Of a stretch of 64,000 nucleotides of DNA, positions 1 to 49,530 are shown piece by piece. The notes under the pieces were generated by a model. The model ran no database searches. It was given only the letters and a program-made list of their open reading frames with translations, and was not told where the DNA came from. Source of the stretch: a virus (lineage: Duplodnaviria > Caudoviricetes); IMG/VR virus record IMGVR_UViG_3300033145_001841, positions 240 to 64,239 of that record; one strand, written 5' to 3'. The number at the start of each line of letters is the position of its first letter. The first letter of the stretch is position 1. The position numbers were made by a program, and so were the translations under genes.

Positions 1-192
1 GTCGATTCAACGGGCACGTCGCAATTCGGAAAAGATTATTTTTATCAGTATATTCGAAATGAATTATGTTTGCTCTCGTGCGGGTCTTGGGGCGACGGTT
101 CGGCTGCGGGGGTTTGGTATTCGCATTGGTACGACTGTCGGTCGGGTTCGAGCGACTCTGTGGGTTTACGGCTCTGCCTGTACCCGTGGTAG
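1..192 (+). CDS. 3' end of DGR target gene (CLec/FGE-type variable C-terminus, probable receptor-binding/tail protein); 5'-truncated by window
   Basis: Frame 1 is open to TAG at 190-192 (...LLSCGSWGDGSAAGVWYSHWYDCRSGSSDSVGLRLCLYPW*). It has GxW...GxR motifs typical of DGR CLec targets and contains the VR. Confidence 0.85.
   Translation, partial: VDSTGTSQFGKDYFYQYIRNELCLLSCGSWGDGSAAGVWYSHWYDCRSGSSDSVGLRLCLYPW
63..180 (+). repeat. DGR variable repeat (VR)
   Basis: Aligns without gaps to 641-758. I count 30 mismatches in 118 nt, all at TR adenines. Confidence 0.97.
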
Positions 193-3794: not shown

Positions 3795-4800
3795 CGAAAG
3801 ATAGATTTTCAACCGCATTTTTCACATCGTCCTGAACATTATAAATGTACCGATCCGTTGTGGTCGGAGCCGCATGGCCGAGCAGCTTCTGAATGGTCGG
3901 GATGGACTTTTTATATTTGTCGGCCAGCAGGGATGCAAACATTCTCCTGATTGCATGAAAGCCCACCCTACCCTTCTCGATCCCCGCCTTTTTACATAAT
4001 CCGTGAATGAACCTTCTCCTGGTCGTGTACCCTGCCCCGTAGTGGCTGTGATTTGGCTCCCGGTTCTGGAAAACGAAGTCTGACATGGGTAATTTGTTTT
4101 TCCACTGGTCCTGCAAGCAACTAAACGCCATGTCGTTCATGGGCGCATATCGGTATTTCATGGAACCATCCCTTGACTTTCTGCTCCCTAATCGGATTGT
4201 GCGCTTCTCAAAATTGATATCGTCCGTCCAGGTCAGCCGAAAGATTTCTGAGCGCCGGGCCCCTGTTGTCCCCAAAACCACCAAAAGGTTCCGACCGTGC
4301 CTAGTTGCAGCCAACATAATGCGAATGAACTCATCCTCAGTGAATACAGCCTGTGGTCCCCTGTTGGACGGGAGCTTATCAATGCCCACTACCGGGCTAA
4401 CAGGCAGCTTGTGAAATTTCATAGCGTAATTGAAAAATGCCAGTAGTTCTTTCCTGGCTCGGTTAAACCGCGACGCGGGCGTGATCATCTTGAGGTAGTC
4501 CCACACGTCTTTCGTGGTAATATTCAGGATCGGCGTATCTGGTGGGTATTTACAAAGCAATCTTTTCAAGTGCCTCCGCTTTGTTTTGTATGTGCTTTCG
4601 ATGTACTTGATTTCGGCAAATGACAAATAATCGTTAATGACTTCCAGCAAAGAGCCCGTGTGGGTCTGCTTGAGATAAGAGCTTTTGGTCTCCCTTTCCC
4701 ATGCGATTGCCTCTCTTTTTGTACGGAATGATTTTTGCGCGATGCGCTTCTGGCTGACTGTCACGACTCCGCGCCATCTTCCCCGATCCTTGTAAGGCAT
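3742..4800 (-). CDS. int: phage integrase (tyrosine recombinase)
   Basis: TGARRSEI, FHAIRR and LLGHAAPTTTDRY catalytic motifs; N-terminal arm-binding segment; next to attP. Confidence 0.95.
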   Translation of the reverse strand: MPYKDRGRWRGVVTVSQKRIAQKSFRTKREAIAWERETKSSYLKQTHTGSLLEVINDYLSFAEIKYIESTYKTKRRHLKRLLCKYPPDTPILNITTKDVWDYLKMITPASRFNRARKELLAFFNYAMKFHKLPVSPVVGIDKLPSNRGPQAVFTEDEFIRIMLAATRHGRNLLVVLGTTGARRSEIFRLTWTDDINFEKRTIRLGSRKSRDGSMKYRYAPMNDMAFSCLQDQWKNKLPMSDFVFQNREPNHSHYGAGYTTRRRFIHGLCKKAGIEKGRVGFHAIRRMFASLLADKYKKSIPTIQKLLGHAAPTTTDRYIYNVQDDVKNAVENLSFETSLPQTLPRNEKGANQ

Positions 4801-19020: not shown

Positions 19021-20112
19021 TTAAGCGGGTTGGGTTTCGGTAGGGCGGAGGGCTTCAAGTTCAGCGATAAATTTTACCCTCTGGCCTGCATCCATTTCCT
19101 TCGCAGTGGCCACCTTGTACGGTTTGAGAAGGTTTTTCCACGATTCCGGCGCCACAATTCGCAATTCTTTCTTTAACTTCACGATTTTCATGAGGTCGTC
19201 TTTTTGATCGGCTGGGGTATCAGCCTTATCGGTTTTTGTTTCAGCGGCCGGAGGCGGAGCCTTGGATGGTTCGGATTTCTTTTTTTCATCGGCTTTTCTG
19301 TCGGCAGCCTTTTTTTCTTCCGGTGTGATGGTTGCCGGTTCGAGTTTGGTAGTGGTAGTTTTCTCAGTGGCGCCATTGCCGCCCTGGATCAGATCCCGGA
19401 AGGGTGCGAAAAGAGCAAAAGCGTCATCTTGGTTCCGCCATGGGTACGTTTTCTTTTCAGGAAGCATCCCCGTTCGGTCTTTCTCAACTTTGGCGATAAA
19501 GACCCCGTTAGATTTCTCGAAAATGTGAACCACGGTATCGAACCAATGCTCAAGGCCTTTGACGCCATCCGGTTTTTCCCCGACCACCTTCATGCCACTC
19601 CATTTACTCGTACTGTGACACGTCCATATGAAATGGAAGGGTGACTTAATGAAATCTCTCAAGAGGTCGTAAATTTCTTTTCGGTAGGGCTCGTGATCAT
19701 TCGGCTGGAAAATGTAAAATTCTTTCTTGTGGCCTGAAGAGGTTGGCATTCGTGTCAAGTATAGCTCGGCGTATTTCGATTTGACGGCGTTGAAATAGTT
19801 GGTGTGGCTGTCAAGGGAAAGGACTTGAAGCCCTTTCGGTATTTTTATTTTCGATGCAACGTAGGCCATTATTTCATCCGGATCAGAGGTTCGGCAATGA
19901 CGGAAACGAAATTGATTACCATAATAATCAGTGCCGTTTTCCGTATCAATAACGGATAAAATGGGCGCTTGATCTGCAGGAACATCGCACATCTGGAGGA
20001 TTGCCCGAGTTTTGTATTGCCCCCGAGGGCCAGTGATTAAAATTTTTAACTGCTTTTCCGTTGAATCCCCGGCAATTTCATCCGGCGGGGCTTTCATTTG
20101 CGTTTTTGCCAT
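19021..20112 (-). CDS. AAA_24/Sak4-like recombination ATPase
   Basis: KILITGPRGQYKT, VIDTENG, LSLDS and KDRTG motifs. Confidence 0.75.
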   Translation of the reverse strand: MAKTQMKAPPDEIAGDSTEKQLKILITGPRGQYKTRAILQMCDVPADQAPILSVIDTENGTDYYGNQFRFRHCRTSDPDEIMAYVASKIKIPKGLQVLSLDSHTNYFNAVKSKYAELYLTRMPTSSGHKKEFYIFQPNDHEPYRKEIYDLLRDFIKSPFHFIWTCHSTSKWSGMKVVGEKPDGVKGLEHWFDTVVHIFEKSNGVFIAKVEKDRTGMLPEKKTYPWRNQDDAFALFAPFRDLIQGGNGATEKTTTTKLEPATITPEEKKAADRKADEKKKSEPSKAPPPAAETKTDKADTPADQKDDLMKIVKLKKELRIVAPESWKNLLKPYKVATAKEMDAGQRVKFIAELEALRPTETQPA

Positions 20113-20222
20113 TGACTCTTTCTCCTTATAAATAGGACATCGTTTTCGTTTTGGACAATTGACGCATGTGGATTGCCACTGTCCGCGGATCTCGCACCAG
20201 AATTTTCCGTTTACGACTGACA

Positions 20223-20864
20223 TTAGAAGTAAAACCCCAACATCTTCTGGTAAATTGCCTTGAGCGACCGGCATTCAGCCTGGTTGTATTCTTTGATTTC
20301 GGCGTAGACGCCAACGTCCCAAAGGCTTTGTATAAATGAACCATCCATGTCATCAGCCTTTGATTCGCCCAAGATAATCTTTGAATAATAATCAAGCGTG
20401 CCCTTTGCGTGCGTGTCCCAATCACCCAGTAAGGCCCGAATGTCCACATGGTTTCCTATCTGGTAGCGCTTGGTTGATATCTTTACGGACGGTTGGACGC
20501 CATTGACCATTGAACGGAAGGTGAGAACGGGGATGTCAAATCCGTTTCCGTTAAATGTTATGAAACGAGAATATGGATGGGCGATTTCCCAAAAGTCTTC
20601 CAGGAGAGCCTTTTCGTCCAGTGTTTCAGTATCCAGCTCGACCGATTGAATTTCATCCGTTTCGACATCCAATGTTGTAATGCAGCAGATTAAACAAGTG
20701 GTTTTATCGAGCCCCATTTTTTCGATTTGTTCTATTCCTTTTTCGACCTTCGCCGCTTCGATTTTCACAGGATCTTTCAACCGGCTATCGATTTTTATCG
20801 GTGGAAGCCGATCTTTCATGGCCGGATTTGCGATACTTTCGATGTCAAAAATTAATTGGCGCAT
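20223..20864 (-). CDS. DEDD 3'-5' exonuclease (PolB-exo-like)
   Basis: FDIES, ITFNGNGFDIP and HVDI motifs. Confidence 0.8.
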   Translation of the reverse strand: MRQLIFDIESIANPAMKDRLPPIKIDSRLKDPVKIEAAKVEKGIEQIEKMGLDKTTCLICCITTLDVETDEIQSVELDTETLDEKALLEDFWEIAHPYSRFITFNGNGFDIPVLTFRSMVNGVQPSVKISTKRYQIGNHVDIRALLGDWDTHAKGTLDYYSKIILGESKADDMDGSFIQSLWDVGVYAEIKEYNQAECRSLKAIYQKMLGFYF

Positions 20865-21425
20865 GCCTTCCTCCTTCTATAGTTTATCTGGTATTCATTT
20901 CTGCATTCGTTATGATATGCGACGTAATTATTTGGTTTCTTGAACATTTTTTTTGGATCGTCATATTTTTTACAAAAATGGCATTTCATCCAGTTGGCAT
21001 GCCCAGACTCGGTAAGTGCTCGTTTCCTTGCGTGCAAAAGCAAGTGATAACCCTGGTCTTCGCATATTACCAGGTTGCAATTATCGTTTTCTTTTTTGTT
21101 GGAATTTGCATGGTGAACGACAGCCTTCCTGGGAAGATTTTTGCCTAGGGCTTTTTCAGCAATAAATATGTGTTCAAGGATGTAGCCATTATGGCTACGG
21201 GGGTGGCTTGTTTAGTATGCAAACATACCCTGCGATATGGTTTGTTCTTCCGTTTTTATAGTTTGCACGATTGTGGCCATGGATAAATCTTAAAGGGTAT
21301 CCTTTTTTAGAACCTGTTCTATGGTTTGTTTCAGAAGCAGGCTTCGTGTTGCTTCCACATCCGCATTGACAATATCCAAATGGAATTTTTACCAACCCTT
21401 CTATTGTATTGCCGTTGCCTCTCAT
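20852..21425 (-). pseudogene. frameshifted HNH endonuclease
   Basis: The YCQCGCG...GYVCILNK frame stops at 21195. HPRSHNGYILEH...VVHH...NLVIC continues in another frame. Confidence 0.7.
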
Positions 21426-21607
21426 TATGCGGCTTTCCTCCACTTCGCGTGATCCATTGTCGCGGCAATCTTGACAGGGCTACACATCAACCATGTCGAA
21501 AGGCTCACGGGGTGCGTGTCGGCACAACGCGGGCAATCTTTGTTTTCTTCAACGGAGAATATCGTTTGGCAATTCTCGCAATACATCGCATCGTAAATAT
21601 CGATCAT
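21425..21607 (-). CDS. small zinc-ribbon protein
   Basis: CENC...CPRC. Confidence 0.5.
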   Translation of the reverse strand: MIDIYDAMYCENCQTIFSVEENKDCPRCADTHPVSLSTWLMCSPVKIAATMDHAKWRKAA

Positions 21608-21623
21608 GACGTTATGCCCCCTT

Positions 21624-21947
21624 TCACCCACCCAATGGTTTGAACCTGGGAGAATTCCCCACACGCGGCGGTGGGCGATACGTTCTCCCTTTCGGCTTTG
21701 AAAACATGCCCAGCTGGTCCTCGTTAATAATCCCTGACGTTTTGTCTTTAATGCGCCCTGTGATAAAATTGATTGCAACTTCGATTTTCGTGCCGCCCTG
21801 AGCCGGCGTGGCCTTAATCGTGACACCGATTGATAAAGGATCATCACCCATTTCGAGATAGGCCTTATTCAGTGCTCGTCGATAATCGCGCAATAATGCT
21901 TTCACCTGATCAGTCATATAATTGATTGTTTCCGTCCCAATGGTCAT
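21624..21947 (-). CDS. hypothetical protein
   Basis: GGAGG RBS upstream of MTIGTE. Confidence 0.5.
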   Translation of the reverse strand: MTIGTETINYMTDQVKALLRDYRRALNKAYLEMGDDPLSIGVTIKATPAQGGTKIEVAINFITGRIKDKTSGIINEDQLGMFSKPKGRTYRPPPRVGNSPRFKPLGG

Positions 21948-22116
21948 TGGCGTGTTTCCCTCCTGTTCCCCCCGGATCCCCGAGGGGGGTCTCTGGTTTT
22001 CAGTTATTTCCAAACTTTTCAATCCTTTCTCATGGGCATGCCCTCCGAAGGTAAATATATTATTGCTTGGGGTTAGTGGTTAATGGGTGGTCTGGCCGGT
22101 TGTGCTGTTAAGAGGT

Positions 22117-22150
22117 TGGTGAGCCGGTAGCAGGCATCGAACCTGCGACA
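22117..22150 (-). other. tRNA-like 3' fragment (T-arm + CCA)
   Basis: Minus strand GCAGG-TTCGATG-CCTGC-TACCGGCTCACCA. Confidence 0.4.
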
Positions 22151-22164
22151 CTGTGCCACCGCGT

Positions 22165-22239
22165 CTTTTGTTGATTCTTGTCTTGTCTGGTCTTGTCATG
22201 TCCTGTCATGTCGGGTCATGTCTCGTCATGTCACGTCGC
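22165..22239 (-). repeat. pentamer array C, (GAC-NN)x12 + conserved tail; candidate guide RNA
   Basis: Plus-strand GTC every 5 nt from 22180 to 22237; tail CTTTTGTTGATTCTTGTC. Confidence 0.9.
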
Positions 22240-22246
22240 ATTAAAA

Positions 22247-22741
22247 TTATCCCCCTGAAAAAGCCTCAAGGGTTTTCCCAATTGGCAATTCTTTTTGAAC
22301 CTGCTGAACCCTGTTTTCAATCCGTTTGATGCTGCCAGGCTTCGTGAAAGCGTACATGGCCCCTAAAACGCTCATCGCGGTGTTGTGTTTGACCCTCGCT
22401 TCGTTTGGCATGGCGTCAAAATCGCTGATACTCGAAACTTGCCGGATGCCATTTCTTGCAGTCCTTCTGATGCGCTTAATGAAGTGTTCTGATGTAGAGA
22501 CGGTTTCTTCTTGGGATAACCGCTTAAGCCCGACTCCCCGCACAGTGCCAAATGTGATTTGATTATCCTTTTGGGCCATTCTTCGCGCCGTATGCAGATT
22601 CCCATACGCCACTGATTGAACGTCACGGTTGATGGTCTGGGAAAGATCCGGGTAGGTGATGGTTTCCCCTTCAGGAACTTCGATCAGTTTTTCATAAAGG
22701 GTGCGGCTGTCGATGCTGAGTTCTTCGATGCCTTTGGCCAT
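22247..22741 (-). CDS. partner protein of the Cas7-like gene (possible winged-helix N-terminus)
   Basis: 164 aa between arrays B and C; AAGGAG RBS continuous with the array tail; GETITYPDLS...VRGVGL pattern. Confidence 0.6.
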   Translation of the reverse strand: MAKGIEELSIDSRTLYEKLIEVPEGETITYPDLSQTINRDVQSVAYGNLHTARRMAQKDNQITFGTVRGVGLKRLSQEETVSTSEHFIKRIRRTARNGIRQVSSISDFDAMPNEARVKHNTAMSVLGAMYAFTKPGSIKRIENRVQQVQKELPIGKTLEAFSGG

Positions 22742-22750
22742 TTGTTGCTC

Positions 22751-22885
22751 CTTTTGTTGATTCTTGTCGCGTCTTGTCCCGTCTTGTCGAGTCACGTCGA
22801 GTCAAGTCAAGTCGTGACTTGTCGAGTCGTGTCATGGCTTGTCGCTTCTAACCTCGTCGTGTCATGCCTGGTCAAGTCTGGTCTG
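22751..22885 (-). repeat. pentamer array B, about 24 units (GAC-NN) + conserved tail
   Basis: GTC (5 degenerate units) in unbroken 5-nt register from 22766 to 22883. Confidence 0.9.
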
Positions 22886-22886
22886 G

Positions 22887-23453
22887 CTAAGACCACTTAA
22901 TATCTTTCACAACAAACCGGCCGTTGTACCCACCGTTTTCAGGTCGAAAAACACCAACCCCGATGAAATTACCGCTTTCCGTCACGTGCTGTTCAAGCAC
23001 TTCCCGGGTAATGGTTTCGTCAAGGATGAAGTAGGTGACATCCCCGCCCCATTCGTGGATAGTGGGGAAGCATTTGGCAACCCTGGGGCCAGCAGACCCA
23101 CGCTTTCCTTGGCTGTTCCCAAAAATCCACACACCATCGACATCATCCTTTTTAACTGATAATTTCAAGCCATCTGTAACCAATATCCCGGCCAGGAAAT
23201 GCTTTGTGAATGTGGCCTTGCCCCCACCTTTCCCCGGAACCTTCATGCTGAGAAAGCTCGCCGCGCGTTCAAGGGCTTTCTTAAAAGCCATAGGCGGAAT
23301 GAAAATGTACCCGTCATTGTCGGCATGGCATTTCTCGCGCCAGGTTCTTTTTTCAAAATCGTCTTTGCTCTCTTTTTCAAGGGGCTCAGTTTGGTGGTAT
23401 CGCCCCTGCTGATATGGAGCGATGCCTTCAATTGTTACGATTGCCGTTTTCAT
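22887..23453 (-). CDS. stand-alone RAMP / Cas7-like protein 1
   Basis: N-terminal strand VTIEGIAPY, IFIPPMAFKKAL (RAMP IP-x-x-x-x-K helix) and C-terminal Gly-rich loop GNFIGVGVFRPENGGYNGRF. Confidence 0.75.
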   Translation of the reverse strand: MKTAIVTIEGIAPYQQGRYHQTEPLEKESKDDFEKRTWREKCHADNDGYIFIPPMAFKKALERAASFLSMKVPGKGGGKATFTKHFLAGILVTDGLKLSVKKDDVDGVWIFGNSQGKRGSAGPRVAKCFPTIHEWGGDVTYFILDETITREVLEQHVTESGNFIGVGVFRPENGGYNGRFVVKDIKWS

Positions 23454-23462
23454 TTGATCCTC

Positions 23463-23572
23463 CTTTTGTTGATTCTTGTCTTGTCTGGTCTTGTCAGGTC
23501 TGGTCGCGTCGCGTCTCGTCTCGTCAAGTCAAGTCAAGTCGGGTCAGGTCATGTCAAGTCATGTTTAGTCAT
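23463..23572 (-). repeat. pentamer array A, 19 units (GAC-NN) + conserved tail
   Basis: GTC every 5 nt from 23478 to 23570 (one GTT). Confidence 0.92.
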
Positions 23573-23758
23573 ATTTAAAGTTATTTGGTTAACTCATTAA
23601 CTGGGCTTCTTGCCGTGCCAAACCGCCCGTCCGAGATGCTTCGTAGACGCCTGCTCTATCCGCTGCCAAGCTGCCCACCGGGCGGGATGCGCTCAATCCA
23701 CATGGGATATTGGCGACTTTTTCCCGGTTGTCGGTGGGGTGCTTGACTGTTGGGTGTG

Positions 23759-23787
23759 ATAATTGCATAAGTGGAATCTTATGTCAA
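23759..23787 (-). promoter_or_regulatory. candidate sigma70 promoter for the leftward operon
   Basis: TTGACA-17 nt-AATTAT with an extended TG. Confidence 0.35.
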
Positions 23788-24060
23788 GGAAATAAATTTC
23801 ATATGTGCAATTTTTATTGCACAAAAAACCCGGCCTGATATACTCAGTGCCGGGTTGTGGGATCTTTATTAAGATTGGAGGGAAAAGGATGGACAGCGGA
23901 AACGCTTCTGAGAAACTGTCACAAAGAGAGCGATTGAAACTCGTAAAGAAATATTTGGATGTGGGCGTGGTCGAAGCGAAGGACGCTATTGCATTGGGTA
24001 TTGACCCGTTGAAACACCCAGATTATAGCACATTGTGTGTGATGCGGATGTCGGAAATTT

Positions 24061-24384
24061 GAATCCGTCATTATTTCAGCCAAAGCGGGGAAGACGGGGG
24101 TTAATCATGTGCGGGATCTGCGGGGTGTGTTGGACAGAGAGAAGGCGGCAATTGGAGTATTTATCTCCATGCAGAAACCAACAGCCCCAATGATACAGGA
24201 AGCAATTTCATGTGGATTCTATGAATCCGAAATGTGGGGCAAACGACATCCCAAACTCCAGCTCTTGACTATAGAAGACCTTCTAGGCGGGAAACAGATA
24301 GATATGCCGCCCATCAAACAGACATTCAAAAAAGCCAAGAAAGAGCTTTTACGCGAAGAAAAGCAGGGGAAATTGTTTGGTTAG
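24061..24384 (+). pseudogene. C-terminal restriction-endonuclease-like fragment of a methylase-nuclease fusion
   Basis: VIISAKAGKTGVNHVRDLRGVLDREKAAIGVFI...LQLLTIEDLL; in-frame stop at 24040 and no N-terminal domain. Confidence 0.55.
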
Positions 24385-24466
24385 GATAGCGTTTCAGTCA
24401 CACAAAAAAAAACCGCCCGGAGACGGGTGGTGGATTCCGATAAGGATGTATTGAAGTTTTATATGA

Positions 24467-25027
24467 TCAACTGCTCCCACAACATTTTTTATATTTCTTG
24501 CCGCTACCACAAGGGCATGCCGCGTTTCTGCTAATCTTCTCAGATTTTGTGGACTGTCCTTTCTTATACTCCTTTACAAAGTCGATACGCTCTTTAGGTG
24601 GGGTCCGAAATGAAAAGGCCGTTTTCTTTTGATAGTTGGTTATCGCAAAATCACCCAATAAAATAATATCCATGCCGATAAGGGCATCAATACCATCTGT
24701 AATAATCCCTTCCGTGACGCGAACGCGGATAACCCCAAGGTCGTTTGACAACTTAATATTTACTAAATACACGGGGCAATCTTTAATAGCCCCACCTACG
24801 CCATGAACTTGGGTCATGCCAATTGGTTTTAGACCGCATTCTTGGACAGCCCGCTTGGTTATCACAGTATTTGTCGCACCGGTATCCCATATGGCCTGAA
24901 ATTTTCTTCCAGGAGGGATAGGATTTGTTTTCTGAGGATTAAAGGCAGGATGAATTATCACCCAAGTTATAAGCGTGTTGGCCAGACCGTCAAATTGAAC
25001 TGTAAAACTTTGGGATTTAGAGGGCAT
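24467..25027 (-). CDS. retropepsin-like aspartyl protease with SEC-C motif
   Basis: AIWDTGAT, LIGMDII and C-terminal RNAACPCGSGKKYKKCCG. Confidence 0.9.
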   Translation of the reverse strand: MPSKSQSFTVQFDGLANTLITWVIIHPAFNPQKTNPIPPGRKFQAIWDTGATNTVITKRAVQECGLKPIGMTQVHGVGGAIKDCPVYLVNIKLSNDLGVIRVRVTEGIITDGIDALIGMDIILLGDFAITNYQKKTAFSFRTPPKERIDFVKEYKKGQSTKSEKISRNAACPCGSGKKYKKCCGSS

Positions 25028-25029
25028 TT

Positions 25030-25275
25030 TTAGGCGAAAGCCACTCTGGAATGGAAGGTTTGGGTGTAACTATTAGTTCCCGGCTCACATTTTTGAACAA
25101 GAAAAGTCCCAAGTTCATGTTCTTCGCTTGTTTTTTTAATGGCTTCAAGTTCGTCATGGTATGCTCCAATAATATTTTGATCTTTGATGACGACAAACTT
25201 GCCATTGTACTTTTTGACAAGGTCTTCTTGGTTCTCAATATAAAATCGGAACTCTTTTTGGAGCGGCTTTGCCAT
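25030..25275 (-). CDS. DUF5678-like small protein
   Basis: LVKKYNGKFVVIKDQNIIG motif; directly upstream of the aspartyl protease. Confidence 0.6.
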   Translation of the reverse strand: MAKPLQKEFRFYIENQEDLVKKYNGKFVVIKDQNIIGAYHDELEAIKKTSEEHELGTFLVQKCEPGTNSYTQTFHSRVAFA

Positions 25276-25491
25276 TTTAGCGCCTCATTTTAATCTAGAG
25301 CGTAAAATTATCCCACAGGCTGTTTTCAGCGTCAAGAAAATTCGTGTAATGTTTCACCTTTTACCTCACCATTCTCAATATCGTGTAAACGCCTGATACG
25401 CCACAGAGGGCAAAAATCCTCACCATCCCGAAATGCCGGAATTTCCGGAATACGCTGTTTTTAAATACCACCGGTGGTCGGTCGGTCTTGA

Positions 25492-26010
25492 TCACTTTGT
25501 AGATTGTGCACCTCCGTTGGCTTCTATTCCAGGGCCCGTTGTAATATCGGTCAGACGCTTCACCTCTTCCTTTAGTTTATCAACGTCTTTTCTCAATTTT
25601 GTTTCATTTTCAACCGAATTTTTAAACGCCGCTAAATTCGCCAATAAGGCAGGGACAATGCTCGGATGTTCCGACTCCATGATTTCTTTTACATCGGCTA
25701 TGGCTTGCCGGGTCGCTTTGTTTTCAACCTCGCCTTCAATTTTGGCTACAAGGGAAAATTTTTCGGATACAACAGCTTCTTTCAACAAGTTTAACGCTTT
25801 CAGGATGCCGTAGATGTTGGCAATCCCGACATTCACAGACCCTTTCAAAAACCTGGAAATTACAGCCTCCGGGACGTCAGACATCTCGTACAGACGCTTA
25901 TTTCTCCCATGGCCAATAAGCCCAATGGTGTTCATTCTATTATCTATTAATTCCACAAGCGGATTTTTCTCTTGACTTAAATCTTCCATTTGTGATATTT
26001 TATCCCCCAT
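25492..26010 (-). CDS. CI-like XRE/HTH repressor (start uncertain)
   Basis: LYEMSDVPEAVISRFLKG HTH; divergent from the Cro-like gene. Confidence 0.6.
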   Translation of the reverse strand: MGDKISQMEDLSQEKNPLVELIDNRMNTIGLIGHGRNKRLYEMSDVPEAVISRFLKGSVNVGIANIYGILKALNLLKEAVVSEKFSLVAKIEGEVENKATRQAIADVKEIMESEHPSIVPALLANLAAFKNSVENETKLRKDVDKLKEEVKRLTDITTGPGIEANGGAQSTK

Positions 26011-28039: not shown

Positions 28040-28131
28040 ATACCGAGGGCATATTCAGGGCATACCGAGGGCATATTCAGGGCATACCGAGGGCATATTC
28101 AGGGCATACCGAGGGCATATTCAGGGCATAC
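28040..28131. repeat. perfect 22-bp tandem repeat x4 (eight 11-bp subunits)
   Basis: ATACCGAGGGCATATTCAGGGC repeated four times. Confidence 0.95.
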
Positions 28132-38951: not shown

Positions 38952-39818
38952 TCATTTCCACCCCATCCCAACTCTAATTCTTTTACGCAAAACATCAACA
39001 GGACAATGCAAATATACATTCCGGATGGTATCTGCTGAATCCCCAAGCAGGACCGCCACGTCTTCTATTTTTACCCCTCCTATAAAGAATAAATAAGAAG
39101 CCGTATAATGTCTGAAAGTGTGCGCGCCTCTTCCGTCCCTCCCGTTCTTAAACCCAAGGTCTTTCAGCATCCCGTTGACAATTTCCTGGACACGGCCGAC
39201 GTCCGGGAATGTTTTACTCAGCCATGCTTTTTTCCCGACCTCGGATTGTCGTGCCACCATCAGCTTGTGGGTCTCCTTCGAAAAGAACGCCGGTCGCGGC
39301 TCAGTTTTCGAGTCAGAAAGAAACAGCGTGCCGGCCGCCATGTCAATATCCGTCCCCCGCAAAACAGCCAGCTCCCTTGCCCGGCAACCGGTTTCGATGA
39401 GAAGCGCGGTTATCAACCTGTCCCGCGTTGGGTTTGCGCTCCTGGGGAAGAAATAGGCCCGGCACTGCGCGATCTCGTCTTGAGACAGCCAACGCCTTGC
39501 ATGTTTCAACTTGAAGGCCTTCTTGCCCTTGTTGCTGATCGAGAAGGTGTATTGCGATGGACGCCCCGCCCACTTTAGGAATATTTTAATGCCGGTGAAT
39601 TTCTGGTAAATGGTTTGGTCGGAAATTTTCCGCGCCTTGAGCGCCTTGGCCAGGGCGGGCATATGCGATTCGATGTGTCTGACTTCCGTGATGCCGCTGG
39701 ACGCTTCACAGAATTTGCGAAGGTCATTCAGGCTGATGGTGTATCCTTCGCGGGTGGTGGGGGCAAGGCTCTGCACCTTTTGGCTGTTCAGGTATTCATT
39801 GATCTTCTCCTTTATCAT
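38952..39818 (-). CDS. second tyrosine recombinase (XerC/D-like)
   Basis: SLAPTTREGY SAM domain, ETGCRAREL, AHTFRH and LLGD...NVYLH. Confidence 0.88.
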   Translation of the reverse strand: MIKEKINEYLNSQKVQSLAPTTREGYTISLNDLRKFCEASSGITEVRHIESHMPALAKALKARKISDQTIYQKFTGIKIFLKWAGRPSQYTFSISNKGKKAFKLKHARRWLSQDEIAQCRAYFFPRSANPTRDRLITALLIETGCRARELAVLRGTDIDMAAGTLFLSDSKTEPRPAFFSKETHKLMVARQSEVGKKAWLSKTFPDVGRVQEIVNGMLKDLGFKNGRDGRGAHTFRHYTASYLFFIGGVKIEDVAVLLGDSADTIRNVYLHCPVDVLRKRIRVGMGWK

Positions 39819-49259: not shown

Positions 49260-49530
49260 TGGTACTGTAAACAAATGTTACGGTTGTAAACTTATGTTAC
49301 GGTTTCGGTTACTCATAACGTGGGGTTATGGGTTGGCTCATTCATAAGCTTAGGTTATGAGTTGCGTGACTCATAACCTAAAGTTATGGGTTGTAATTGG
49401 CGACGGCCTATAAGATGAGAGTGTGTAGAAAGGTAACACTGTGTAGAAAGGTAACACTTGTGTCTCAAGATAGTGTCTCATGTTAATAATGATGCAATGA
49501 TGCACCATTGTGTCTCAATGTGTCTCATAT
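49260..49530. repeat. cluster of short tandem/palindromic repeats upstream of terminase
   Basis: GTAAAC..ATGTTACGGTT x2; 29-bp-period CATAA...GTTATG x3 (49311-49393); GTGTAGAAAGGTAACACT x2 (49423-49458); several GTGTCTCA. Confidence 0.8.

What the first reader, a model, noticed from the sequence alone, without database searches (positions are those of the whole stretch)
22165..23572. Cas7-like gene plus partner interleaved with three (GAC-NN)n arrays sharing an 18-nt tail
Seen: on the minus strand the order is array A (19 units), 188-aa RAMP-like gene, array B (about 24 units), 164-aa gene, array C (12 units). GAC recurs every 5 nt while the dinucleotide varies (array A, plus strand: tt tt tg tt ag tg gc gc tc tc aa aa aa gg ag at aa at ta). 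All three arrays end in GACAAGAATCAACAAAAG. The register holds even through degenerate units in array B, which suggests selection on spacing rather than slippage. No cas1/2/3/6 or CRISPR array is present. Inference: three small RNAs with a constant 3' handle, whose NN pairs encode a non-contiguous target, probably acting as a repressor or anti-competitor complex because no nuclease is linked. The GAC anchor differs from the GGY motif I recall for VIPR systems.
Basis: partly seen in the sequence, partly recalled or inferred. Interest (0 to 1): 0.92.

Follow-up and report, generated by a model that had tools for sequence, protein, structure and literature searches.

The report
Phage VIPR system with GAC guides
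A temperate phage carries a VIPR system, a CRISPR-like RNA-guided DNA silencer first described in 2026, whose guide RNAs use a GAC scaffold instead of the first-described GGY; this is a clean new example of a known kind, not a new kind.

Summary
Three period-5 (GAC-NN)n arrays (19, 24 and 12 units) interleave with a 188-aa and a 164-aa gene on the minus strand. Each array ends in the same 18 nt.

The 188-aa protein is a Vipr:
- A family profile hits the solved SUSP1 Vipr (E 1.2e-7; hhalign 96.7%, 167 columns).

The 164-aa protein has an N-terminal winged helix and follows vipr in 64 of 90 related loci.

Two relatives with 99% identical vipr genes share only 4/26 and 4/13 guide units.

So this is a VIPR system. 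GAC/NN repeats are already named in a preprint of October 2026, and this scan met them before on other DNA.

New here and suggestive only: anchor type switches repeatedly among close Viprs. A G-loop arginine (position 168) is kept in 39/39 GGC, CGC and GGT proteins but lost in 30/32 GAC proteins.

No convincing natural target was found. One borderline candidate lies in a group II intron reverse transcriptase.

The parts
23759..23787 (-). Best sigma-70-like promoter match (TTGACA, 17 nt, AATTAT, with TG before the second hexamer), about 190 nt upstream of array 1. Candidate operon promoter.
   Evidence: 10 of 12 hexamer matches, the best of 7 sites found. Shuffles gave a mean of 2.8 sites. This is a consensus match only.
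23571..23758 (-). Leader between the promoter and array 1, with no assigned function.
   Evidence: folding z-score -1.32, not exceptional; no Rfam match.
23476..23570 (-). vrRNA array 1: 19 GAC-NN units (18 exact). Units 16-19 (AA CA AA AA) are shared with array 3.
23463..23480 (-). Constant 18-nt tail of array 1, running into the GGAGG ribosome-binding site of vipr.
   Evidence: exact triple occurrence; no predicted structure (MFE 0).
22887..23453 (-). vipr: 188-aa Cas7-like RAMP. G-loop GNFIGVGVFRP, with Val at position 168.
22764..22883 (-). vrRNA array 2: 24 units (19 exact GAC), starting 3 nt after the vipr stop codon.
22751..22768 (-). Constant 18-nt tail of array 2, running into the GGAG ribosome-binding site of vap.
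22247..22741 (-). vap: 164-aa accessory protein with an N-terminal winged helix (residues 1-75) and a C-terminal helical part.
22178..22237 (-). vrRNA array 3: 12 of 12 exact GAC-NN units. Every second unit is AT.
22165..22182 (-). Constant 18-nt tail of array 3, followed by no gene.

Best explanation
This is a phage-borne VIPR (Viral Interference Programmable Repeat) system: vipr, a winged-helix vap, and three vrRNA arrays in one minus-strand operon.

The proposed mechanism rests on homology to the SUSP1 system; none of the steps below is shown for this locus.
1. The operon is transcribed from one promoter.
2. Vipr protomers bind one per 5-nt unit. They bury each GAC trinucleotide and expose the two variable bases.
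3. The filament reads double-stranded DNA with the gapped NNx code, covering 36-57 bp per guide.
4. Binding silences transcription of a competing mobile element, helped by the DNA-binding Vap. No nuclease is encoded in the two genes.

Differences from SUSP1:
- The anchor is GAC.
- In this clade the GAC anchor goes with loss of a G-loop arginine (Val168 here) and changes at positions 15, 17, 166, 174 and 177.
- The tail is short and unstructured, and it overlaps the ribosome-binding sites of vipr and vap. Filament assembly on the transcript could therefore also throttle translation of both genes. This is my inference and is untested.
For: Shown here:
- Arrays and shared tail.
- Vipr homology: phmmer best PDB hit is SUSP1 Vipr, E 0.033. 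A 41-sequence profile gives E 1.2e-7, with the next hit at 0.058. hhalign gives 96.7%, E 3.9e-10, 167 columns.
- The G-loop aligns without gaps to SUSP1 GVGDWRP.
- Same gene-strand orientation of arrays as in SUSP1 and in relatives.
- The family is large: 882 proteins and 1058 cluster representatives.
- 218 viral stretches encode a relative.
- Anchors are fixed and NN near-random in 133 GAC, 60 GGC and 38 CGC arrays.
- L028 and L030: vipr 550/555 identical and flank 57/57 identical, but guide units 4/26 and 4/13 identical.
- Vap is a winged helix and is syntenic in 64 of 90 loci.
- No self-target in the contig above shuffled controls, as published for VIPR.

From papers:
- RNP formation, the NNx rule, silencing and GGY read-out residues (Results and named sections).
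- GAC/NN clusters beside Vipr-like folds (passages).
Against: - No RNA evidence for this locus.
- No natural target reaches 80% identity over a whole guide.
- Five exact 10-unit seeds gave 0 hits in viral contigs.
- A skip-rule test with 110 of 158 guides from relatives showed no advantage of skip 1 over skips 0, 2 or 3, or over shuffled guides, in 1.7 Mb.
- The tails are unstructured, whereas SUSP1 has a pseudoknot tail of about 55 nt.
- Vap is not demonstrably homologous to Vap1 (hhalign 1%).
- The guides carry internal 10- and 15-nt duplications, so some units may be slippage products and not selected guide content.
- A terminator-like hairpin overlaps the end of vap, before array 3.
Confidence: 0.85

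Rival explanations
1. The arrays act mainly in cis as 5' leaders. Vipr binding to the array in front of each ribosome-binding site autoregulates vipr and vap, and the NN content has no trans target.
For: Tails 1 and 2 run straight into GGAGG/GGAG and an ATG. An SD-like motif lies within 45 nt of the array end in 74/133 GAC, 44/60 GGC and 17/38 CGC arrays. No target was found.
Against: Array 3 is followed by no gene. NN is near-random and turns over between near-identical systems, which autoregulation alone would not require. The homologous SUSP1 RNAs act in trans.
Confidence: 0.07
2. The repeats are slippage-generated simple sequence with no RNA function.
For: Internal 10- and 15-nt duplications. 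Every second unit of array 3 is AT.
Against: The phase holds through degenerate units. The same arrays sit beside vipr in many phages: 35 and more than 120 viral stretches. Anchor entropy is 0.3 bits against NN at about 1.95 bits. An identical 18-nt tail closes all three arrays.
Confidence: 0.03
3. The arrays are DNA-level binding sites (iteron-like) for Vap or Vipr.
For: Vap has a winged helix, and the arrays flank both genes.
Against: Vipr has an RNA-binding RAMP fold and is homologous to a protein solved on vrRNA. Hypervariable NN is not expected of operator sites.
Confidence: 0.03
4. The functional RNA is read from the plus strand as GTC-NN.
For: No strand-specific data exist for this locus.
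Against: In relatives the gene-strand reading gives GGC, the published GGY, and the arrays lie on the vipr strand. The same holds in SUSP1. The best promoter match is on the minus strand.
Confidence: 0.02

Closest known systems
VIPR type II system of Escherichia phage SUSP1 (NC_028808.2). Papers: bioRxiv 10.64898/2026.04.26.720920 and 10.64898/2026.04.26.720927. Solved Vipr chain: PDB 36pp.
   Same: A small Cas7-like Vipr that is homologous over its full length. A second small gene follows on the same strand. Arrays of 5-nt units with a fixed trinucleotide and variable NN, plus a constant 3' tail, lie on the gene strand in a phage. No cas genes are present.
   Different: - Anchor: GAC here, GGT/GGC in SUSP1.
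- Tail: 18 nt, A-rich and unstructured here; about 55 nt with a pseudoknot in SUSP1.
- Layout: one array before each gene and one after here; one upstream and three downstream in SUSP1.
- Accessory protein: Vap is not demonstrably related to Vap1.
- G-loop: V168/F169 here, D177/W178 in SUSP1.
Non-canonical VIPR arrays (GAC/NN, CAC/NN and others) in bioRxiv 10.64898/2026.10.21.760802
   Same: A fixed GAC trinucleotide with variable NN at period 5, next to a Vipr-like fold. The preprint reports 21 clusters and 6,318 sequences and reads them as divergent VIPR systems (passages seen).
   Different: I saw passages and figure legends only, so I cannot tell whether this Vipr clade is among those clusters. 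The passages I saw give no protein determinant of the anchor, no anchor switching among close relatives, and no targets.
Cas7 backbone subunits of class 1 CRISPR effectors (type III Csm3, type VII Cas7)
   Different: - No CRISPR array and no Cas1.
- Guide period is 5 nt with 2 paired bases, not 6 nt with 5 paired bases (my recollection of class 1 effectors).
- Sequence identity is only 8-18%.

Membership tests
VIPR system | vrRNA array: at least 4 tandem 5-nt units with a conserved trinucleotide and hypervariable NN. | tested here: met
   19, 24 and 12 units. Among relatives the anchor carries 0.28-0.33 bits and NN 1.93-1.99 bits. NN turns over between 99% identical systems.
VIPR system | Canonical anchor GGY (YNNGG). 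| tested here: not met
   The anchor is GAC. The literature admits related consensus forms and names GAC/NN, so GGY defines the canonical subset and not the family.
VIPR system | Invariant 3' tail after the repeat tract. | tested here: met
   An identical 18 nt closes all three arrays. No conserved structure is predicted, unlike the SUSP1 pseudoknot.
VIPR system | Minimal locus: vipr plus one vap, no CRISPR array and no other cas genes, mostly in viruses. | tested here: met
   Two genes. No Cas1. No CRISPR-like repeats. The record is a virus with two integrases. Cas2, Cas3 and Cas6 were not searched.
VIPR system | vrRNAs are expressed and bound by Vipr. | not testable with these tools
   No sequencing run could be listed for this locus.
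VIPR system | Targets follow the 1-nt-skip (NNx) rule in competing mobile elements, and no self-target exists. | tested here: inconclusive
   No self-target. One 24/24-base partial match lies in a group II intron RT, but the skip falls on codon position 1. No enrichment of skip 1 in 1.7 Mb.
VIPR type II (vipr + vap1, SUSP1 / P. fulva clade) | Vap1 homologue, and arrays with a structured tail. | tested here: inconclusive
   Vap against Vap1: hhalign 1%, E 0.052. The tails are unstructured. The type definitions rest on a tree and figures that I could not see, because supplements are closed.

The most novel reading that the evidence does not exclude
Anchor identity in this Vipr clade is set by a small pocket made of positions 15 and 17 in strand 1 and positions 166, 168, 174 and 177 around the G-loop. 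This pocket has been remodelled repeatedly among Viprs that are at least 50% identical, giving GGC, CGC and GAC scaffolds. If each Vipr loads only its own scaffold, anchor switching would be an arms-race move: it would insulate a phage's Vipr from rival or decoy vrRNAs, such as the solo vrRNAs that satellites use to redirect SUSP1 VIPR. It would also supply ready-made orthogonal VIPR pairs for engineering.
Probability: 0.25. Interest if true: 0.6.

Novelty: new member of a known kind. Interest (0 to 1): 0.33.

Why it matters
In itself this is one more VIPR locus, of a scaffold type already named in print.

The comparison it prompted is the useful part. Within one clade of closely related Viprs the scaffold triplet changes many times, and the change to GAC tracks loss of one arginine and its neighbours in the RNA-binding loop. 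If confirmed, that names the residues that set scaffold specificity. It would also suggest that scaffolds diversify to avoid cross-loading by rival guide RNAs.

The compact layout, with each array ending at a ribosome-binding site, raises a testable link between guide loading and expression of the system's own proteins.

Tried and rejected
Targets
- The phage's own contig at skips 0-3: best scores equal shuffled-order controls. The perfect skip-3 hits are the arrays themselves.
- 116 held loci, 0.79 Mb: no score above shuffles.
- Exact 10-unit seeds in viral contigs, for guide 1 (two seeds), guide 2 (two seeds) and guide 3 (one seed): 0 hits each.
- Metagenome scan with a guide-1 seed: 9 loci.
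  - Seven carry one site matching units 4-15, 24/24 bases (26/38 over the whole guide), inside a group II intron RT/maturase.
  - All seven share a 554-nt invariant run, so they count as one independent hit.
  - The skip falls on codon position 1, and guides 2 and 3 score at chance on those contigs.
  - The other two loci do not extend beyond the seed.
  - My rough post-hoc estimate is p of about 0.02-0.05. I keep this as a lead only.
- Genome scan with a 9-unit guide-3 seed: 56 loci.
  - 24 Bacillaceae loci share a site in a transmembrane segment of a sensor histidine kinase, with the skip at the wobble position.
  - About 17 chance hits are expected for 18 bases (my estimate).
  - The phage GC is 46.7% against about 37% for those genomes.
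  - Only 1 of 269 genomes of that family has even a distant Vipr match.
  - I rejected it as probable chance.
- Skip-rule replication with 110 of 158 guides from relatives: no difference between skips or against shuffles.

Covariation
- The independent-contrast test has only 4 and 2 well-supported pairs. None goes the opposite way, but the test cannot reach significance.

Other attempts
- No match to deposited phages by protein or by 25 kb of DNA.
- Pfam gives nothing for Vipr.
- Rfam gives nothing credible in 20000-26000.
- Neither the leader nor the post-array-3 stretch folds better than shuffles.
- Foldseek of Vap against the PDB: no hit at E 0.001 or better.
- Protein atlas for Vap: unnamed, mostly viral clusters.
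- Sequencing runs: none was listed and no RNA holder was listed.
- Vipr-Vap complex prediction: no verdict.
- Supplements were closed. Fig. S17 and data S4 of the first VIPR paper may show a GAC logo and the type of this clade.
- In the main texts of the three VIPR preprints 'GAC' occurs 0 times.

Full report
WHAT IS THERE

On the minus strand the locus reads, in order:
- a sigma-70-like promoter match (23787-23759);
- a leader of about 190 nt;
- array 1 (23476-23570; 19 units, 18 with exact GAC);
- a 188-aa gene (22887-23453);
- array 2 (22764-22883; 24 units, 19 exact), starting 3 nt after the stop codon;
- a 164-aa gene (22247-22741);
- array 3 (22178-22237; 12 of 12 exact).

Each array closes with the same 18 nt, which occur nowhere else in the window. 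Tails 1 and 2 run directly into GGAGG or GGAG and an ATG. Tail 3 is followed by no gene.

No other period-5 array of 7 or more units exists on either strand of the 64 kb.

THE PROTEINS

The 188-aa protein has no Pfam family. It belongs to a large unannotated family:
- 882 proteins at E 0.001 or better in the word-indexed search;
- 1058 cluster representatives;
- phrog_4652, of unknown function.

Its best hit among all solved chains is 'SUSP1 Vipr protein':
- E 0.033 for the single sequence;
- E 1.2e-7 for a 41-sequence profile, with the next hit at 0.058;
- hhalign against the SUSP1 gene product gives 96.7% probability over 167 columns.

The 164-aa protein models well (pLDDT 88).
- The rest is helical.
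- It is not demonstrably related to SUSP1 Vap1.
- Its family follows vipr on the same strand in 64 of 90 related loci, whatever the anchor.

THE ARRAYS IN RELATIVES

The layout recurs: array, short tail, ribosome-binding site, vipr, array, vap, often another array.

The anchor differs by locus. Among 90 distinct Viprs:

| Anchor | Viprs |
|---|---|
| GAC | 32 |
| GGC | 27 |
| CGC | 11 |
| no array called | 13 |
| other or mixed | 7 |

The GAC loci were partly collected by array pattern, so these proportions are not frequencies.

Entropy is 0.28-0.33 bits at GAC positions and 1.93-1.99 bits at NN positions, over 133 arrays.

L028 and L030 have vipr genes identical at 550 of 555 bases and a flank identical at 57 of 57. 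Their guides share only 4 of 26 and 4 of 13 units, and these are mainly the terminal units.

The last unit is AA in 52/133 GAC, 42/60 GGC and 29/38 CGC arrays. So a terminal AA block is common but not universal.

COMPARISON WITH WHAT IS KNOWN

VIPR systems were described in 2026.
- Vipr plus vrRNAs of GGY/NN units form a filament. It reads double-stranded DNA with every third base skipped and silences transcription.
- Natural targets are satellites, prophages and rival VIPR loci.
- Seven types are defined. Repeats are listed as YNNGG, NNNGG, YNNNG and NNNNG.

For bioRxiv 10.64898/2026.04.26.720920 I read the Results and Methods sections 18, 20 and 27. For the structural paper I read sections 5 and 6. 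For the satellite paper I read sections 8 and 17.

'GAC' does not occur in the main text of these three.

A fourth preprint, 10.64898/2026.10.21.760802, states that 21 period-5 clusters (6,318 sequences) carry non-canonical motifs 'e.g. GAC/NN or CAC/NN' beside Vipr-like folds. I saw passages only.

Earlier notes of this scan also record GAC- and CGC-type arrays in other genomes.

Hence both the system and the GAC scaffold are known. This locus is a new member.

Against SUSP1 itself (fetched as L118), the differences are the anchor, the tail, the interleaved layout and the accessory protein. The SUSP1 tail is about 55 nt with a pseudoknot. Here it is 18 nt with no predicted structure.

A POSSIBLE DETERMINANT OF THE ANCHOR

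The structural paper names the SUSP1 residues that hold each anchor base:

| Anchor base | SUSP1 residues |
|---|---|
| G1 | H17, D177 |
| G2 | R138, W178 |
| Y3 | E71, M72, R179, C173, T175 |

D177, W178 and R179 align without gaps to our positions 168, 169 and 170. H17 aligns at or next to position 17.

In this clade:

| Position | GGC | CGC | GGT | GAC |
|---|---|---|---|---|
| 168 | R 27/27 | R 11/11 | R 1/1 | R 2/32 (S11 V7 F6 A2 Y2 M1 C1) |
| 17 | S 26/27 | S 11/11 | S 1/1 | S 13/32 |
| 15 | S 27/27 | S 11/11 | S 1/1 | S 6/32 |
| 177 | Y 27/27 | Y 10/11 | Y 1/1 | Y 8/32 |

The window's protein reads Q15, G17, V166, V168, G174 and N177.

On trees built without these columns:
- GAC needs 10-11 changes.
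- Loss of R168 needs 8 changes.
- Only 2-4 contrasts lie on well-supported branches. None goes the opposite way, but the sign test cannot reach significance.

Two GAC loci keep the full canonical signature.

So the association is strong in raw counts and is not yet shown to be independent of descent.

It is also cross-wise to the SUSP1 assignment. The homologues of the G1 readers track the middle base. The homologue of the G2 reader R138 (our F129) shifts to Y in 7 of 11 CGC loci, where the first base changes. I cannot resolve this.

TARGETS

I applied the published NNx rule and shuffled-guide controls.
- No self-target was found.
- Nothing was found in the held loci.
- No exact 10-unit seed hit was found in viral contigs for five seeds.

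Two leads came from the large collections.

1. Guide 1, units 4-15, matches 24 of 24 informative bases in one group II intron reverse transcriptase/maturase. The mismatches fall in the three 5' units and in the four 3' units that guides 1 and 3 share. However:
   - it is one independent hit;
   - the skipped base lies on codon position 1 and not on the wobble position;
   - the other guides do not converge;
   - the number of seed hits is what chance predicts by my estimate.

2. Guide 3, units 1-9, matches a conserved transmembrane segment of a sensor kinase in 24 Bacillaceae loci, with the skip at the wobble position. Eighteen bases in 596 Gb is within chance. Neither GC content nor Vipr distribution (1 of 269 genomes) supports that host.

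A skip-rule replication with 110 of 158 guides from relatives showed nothing in 1.7 Mb.

The targets remain unknown.

VERDICT

- Novelty is low, because VIPR and its GAC scaffold are in print.
- The residual interest lies in the anchor-switching pattern, its candidate protein determinant, and the array-to-ribosome-site layout.

Noticed in passing
window 63-179, 641-757 and about 1095-1679: A diversity-generating retroelement. Two 117-nt copies are 75% identical, and all 29 mismatches are adenines in the copy at 641-757 (the template repeat). A 324-aa reverse transcriptase (RVT_1, E 3.1e-19) lies just downstream.
   Followed up: partly
window about 22100-22150, minus strand: Directly after the tail of array 3 lies a stretch resembling the 3' half of a tRNA: a T-arm (GCAGG-TTCGATG-CCTGC), then an acceptor-like and CCA-like end. 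ARAGORN finds no tRNA in the window, and the stretch does not fold better than shuffles. It could be an attachment-site remnant or a processing signal. It is not next to either integrase.
   Followed up: partly
window about 3844-4344 (-) and 39006-39491 (-): Two tyrosine recombinase genes (PF00589, E 7.9e-24 and 1.2e-12). The record is a linear virus contig with estimated completeness of 78%, so the phage is probably temperate.
   Followed up: no
window 28040-28131 and 49266-49527: A perfect 22-nt tandem repeat of 4.2 copies. Separately, a cluster of 19-, 29- and 18-nt tandem repeats that may be iterons or an origin.
   Followed up: no
related loci, alignment positions 113 and 129 of the window's Vipr: In CGC-anchored relatives the thumb residue 129 is Y in 7 of 11 (F in 26/27 GGC and 30/32 GAC). 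Position 113 is N in 7 of 11 (P in 27/27 GGC). This may be a second anchor-linked signature.
   Followed up: partly
L014:5052-5521: A 470-nt tandem array of 15-nt period (GCGAA CCTTC GGGAC and variants) about 1.5 kb downstream of a GGC-type VIPR locus in a related viral contig. Its nature is unknown.
   Followed up: no
L128-L183 (24 Bacillaceae loci): A sensor histidine kinase gene whose transmembrane segment (LILIGISIT) varies among species almost only at wobble positions. A gapped NNx pattern therefore matches it across many species. This illustrates how conserved peptides inflate hit counts for VIPR-style searches.
   Followed up: yes
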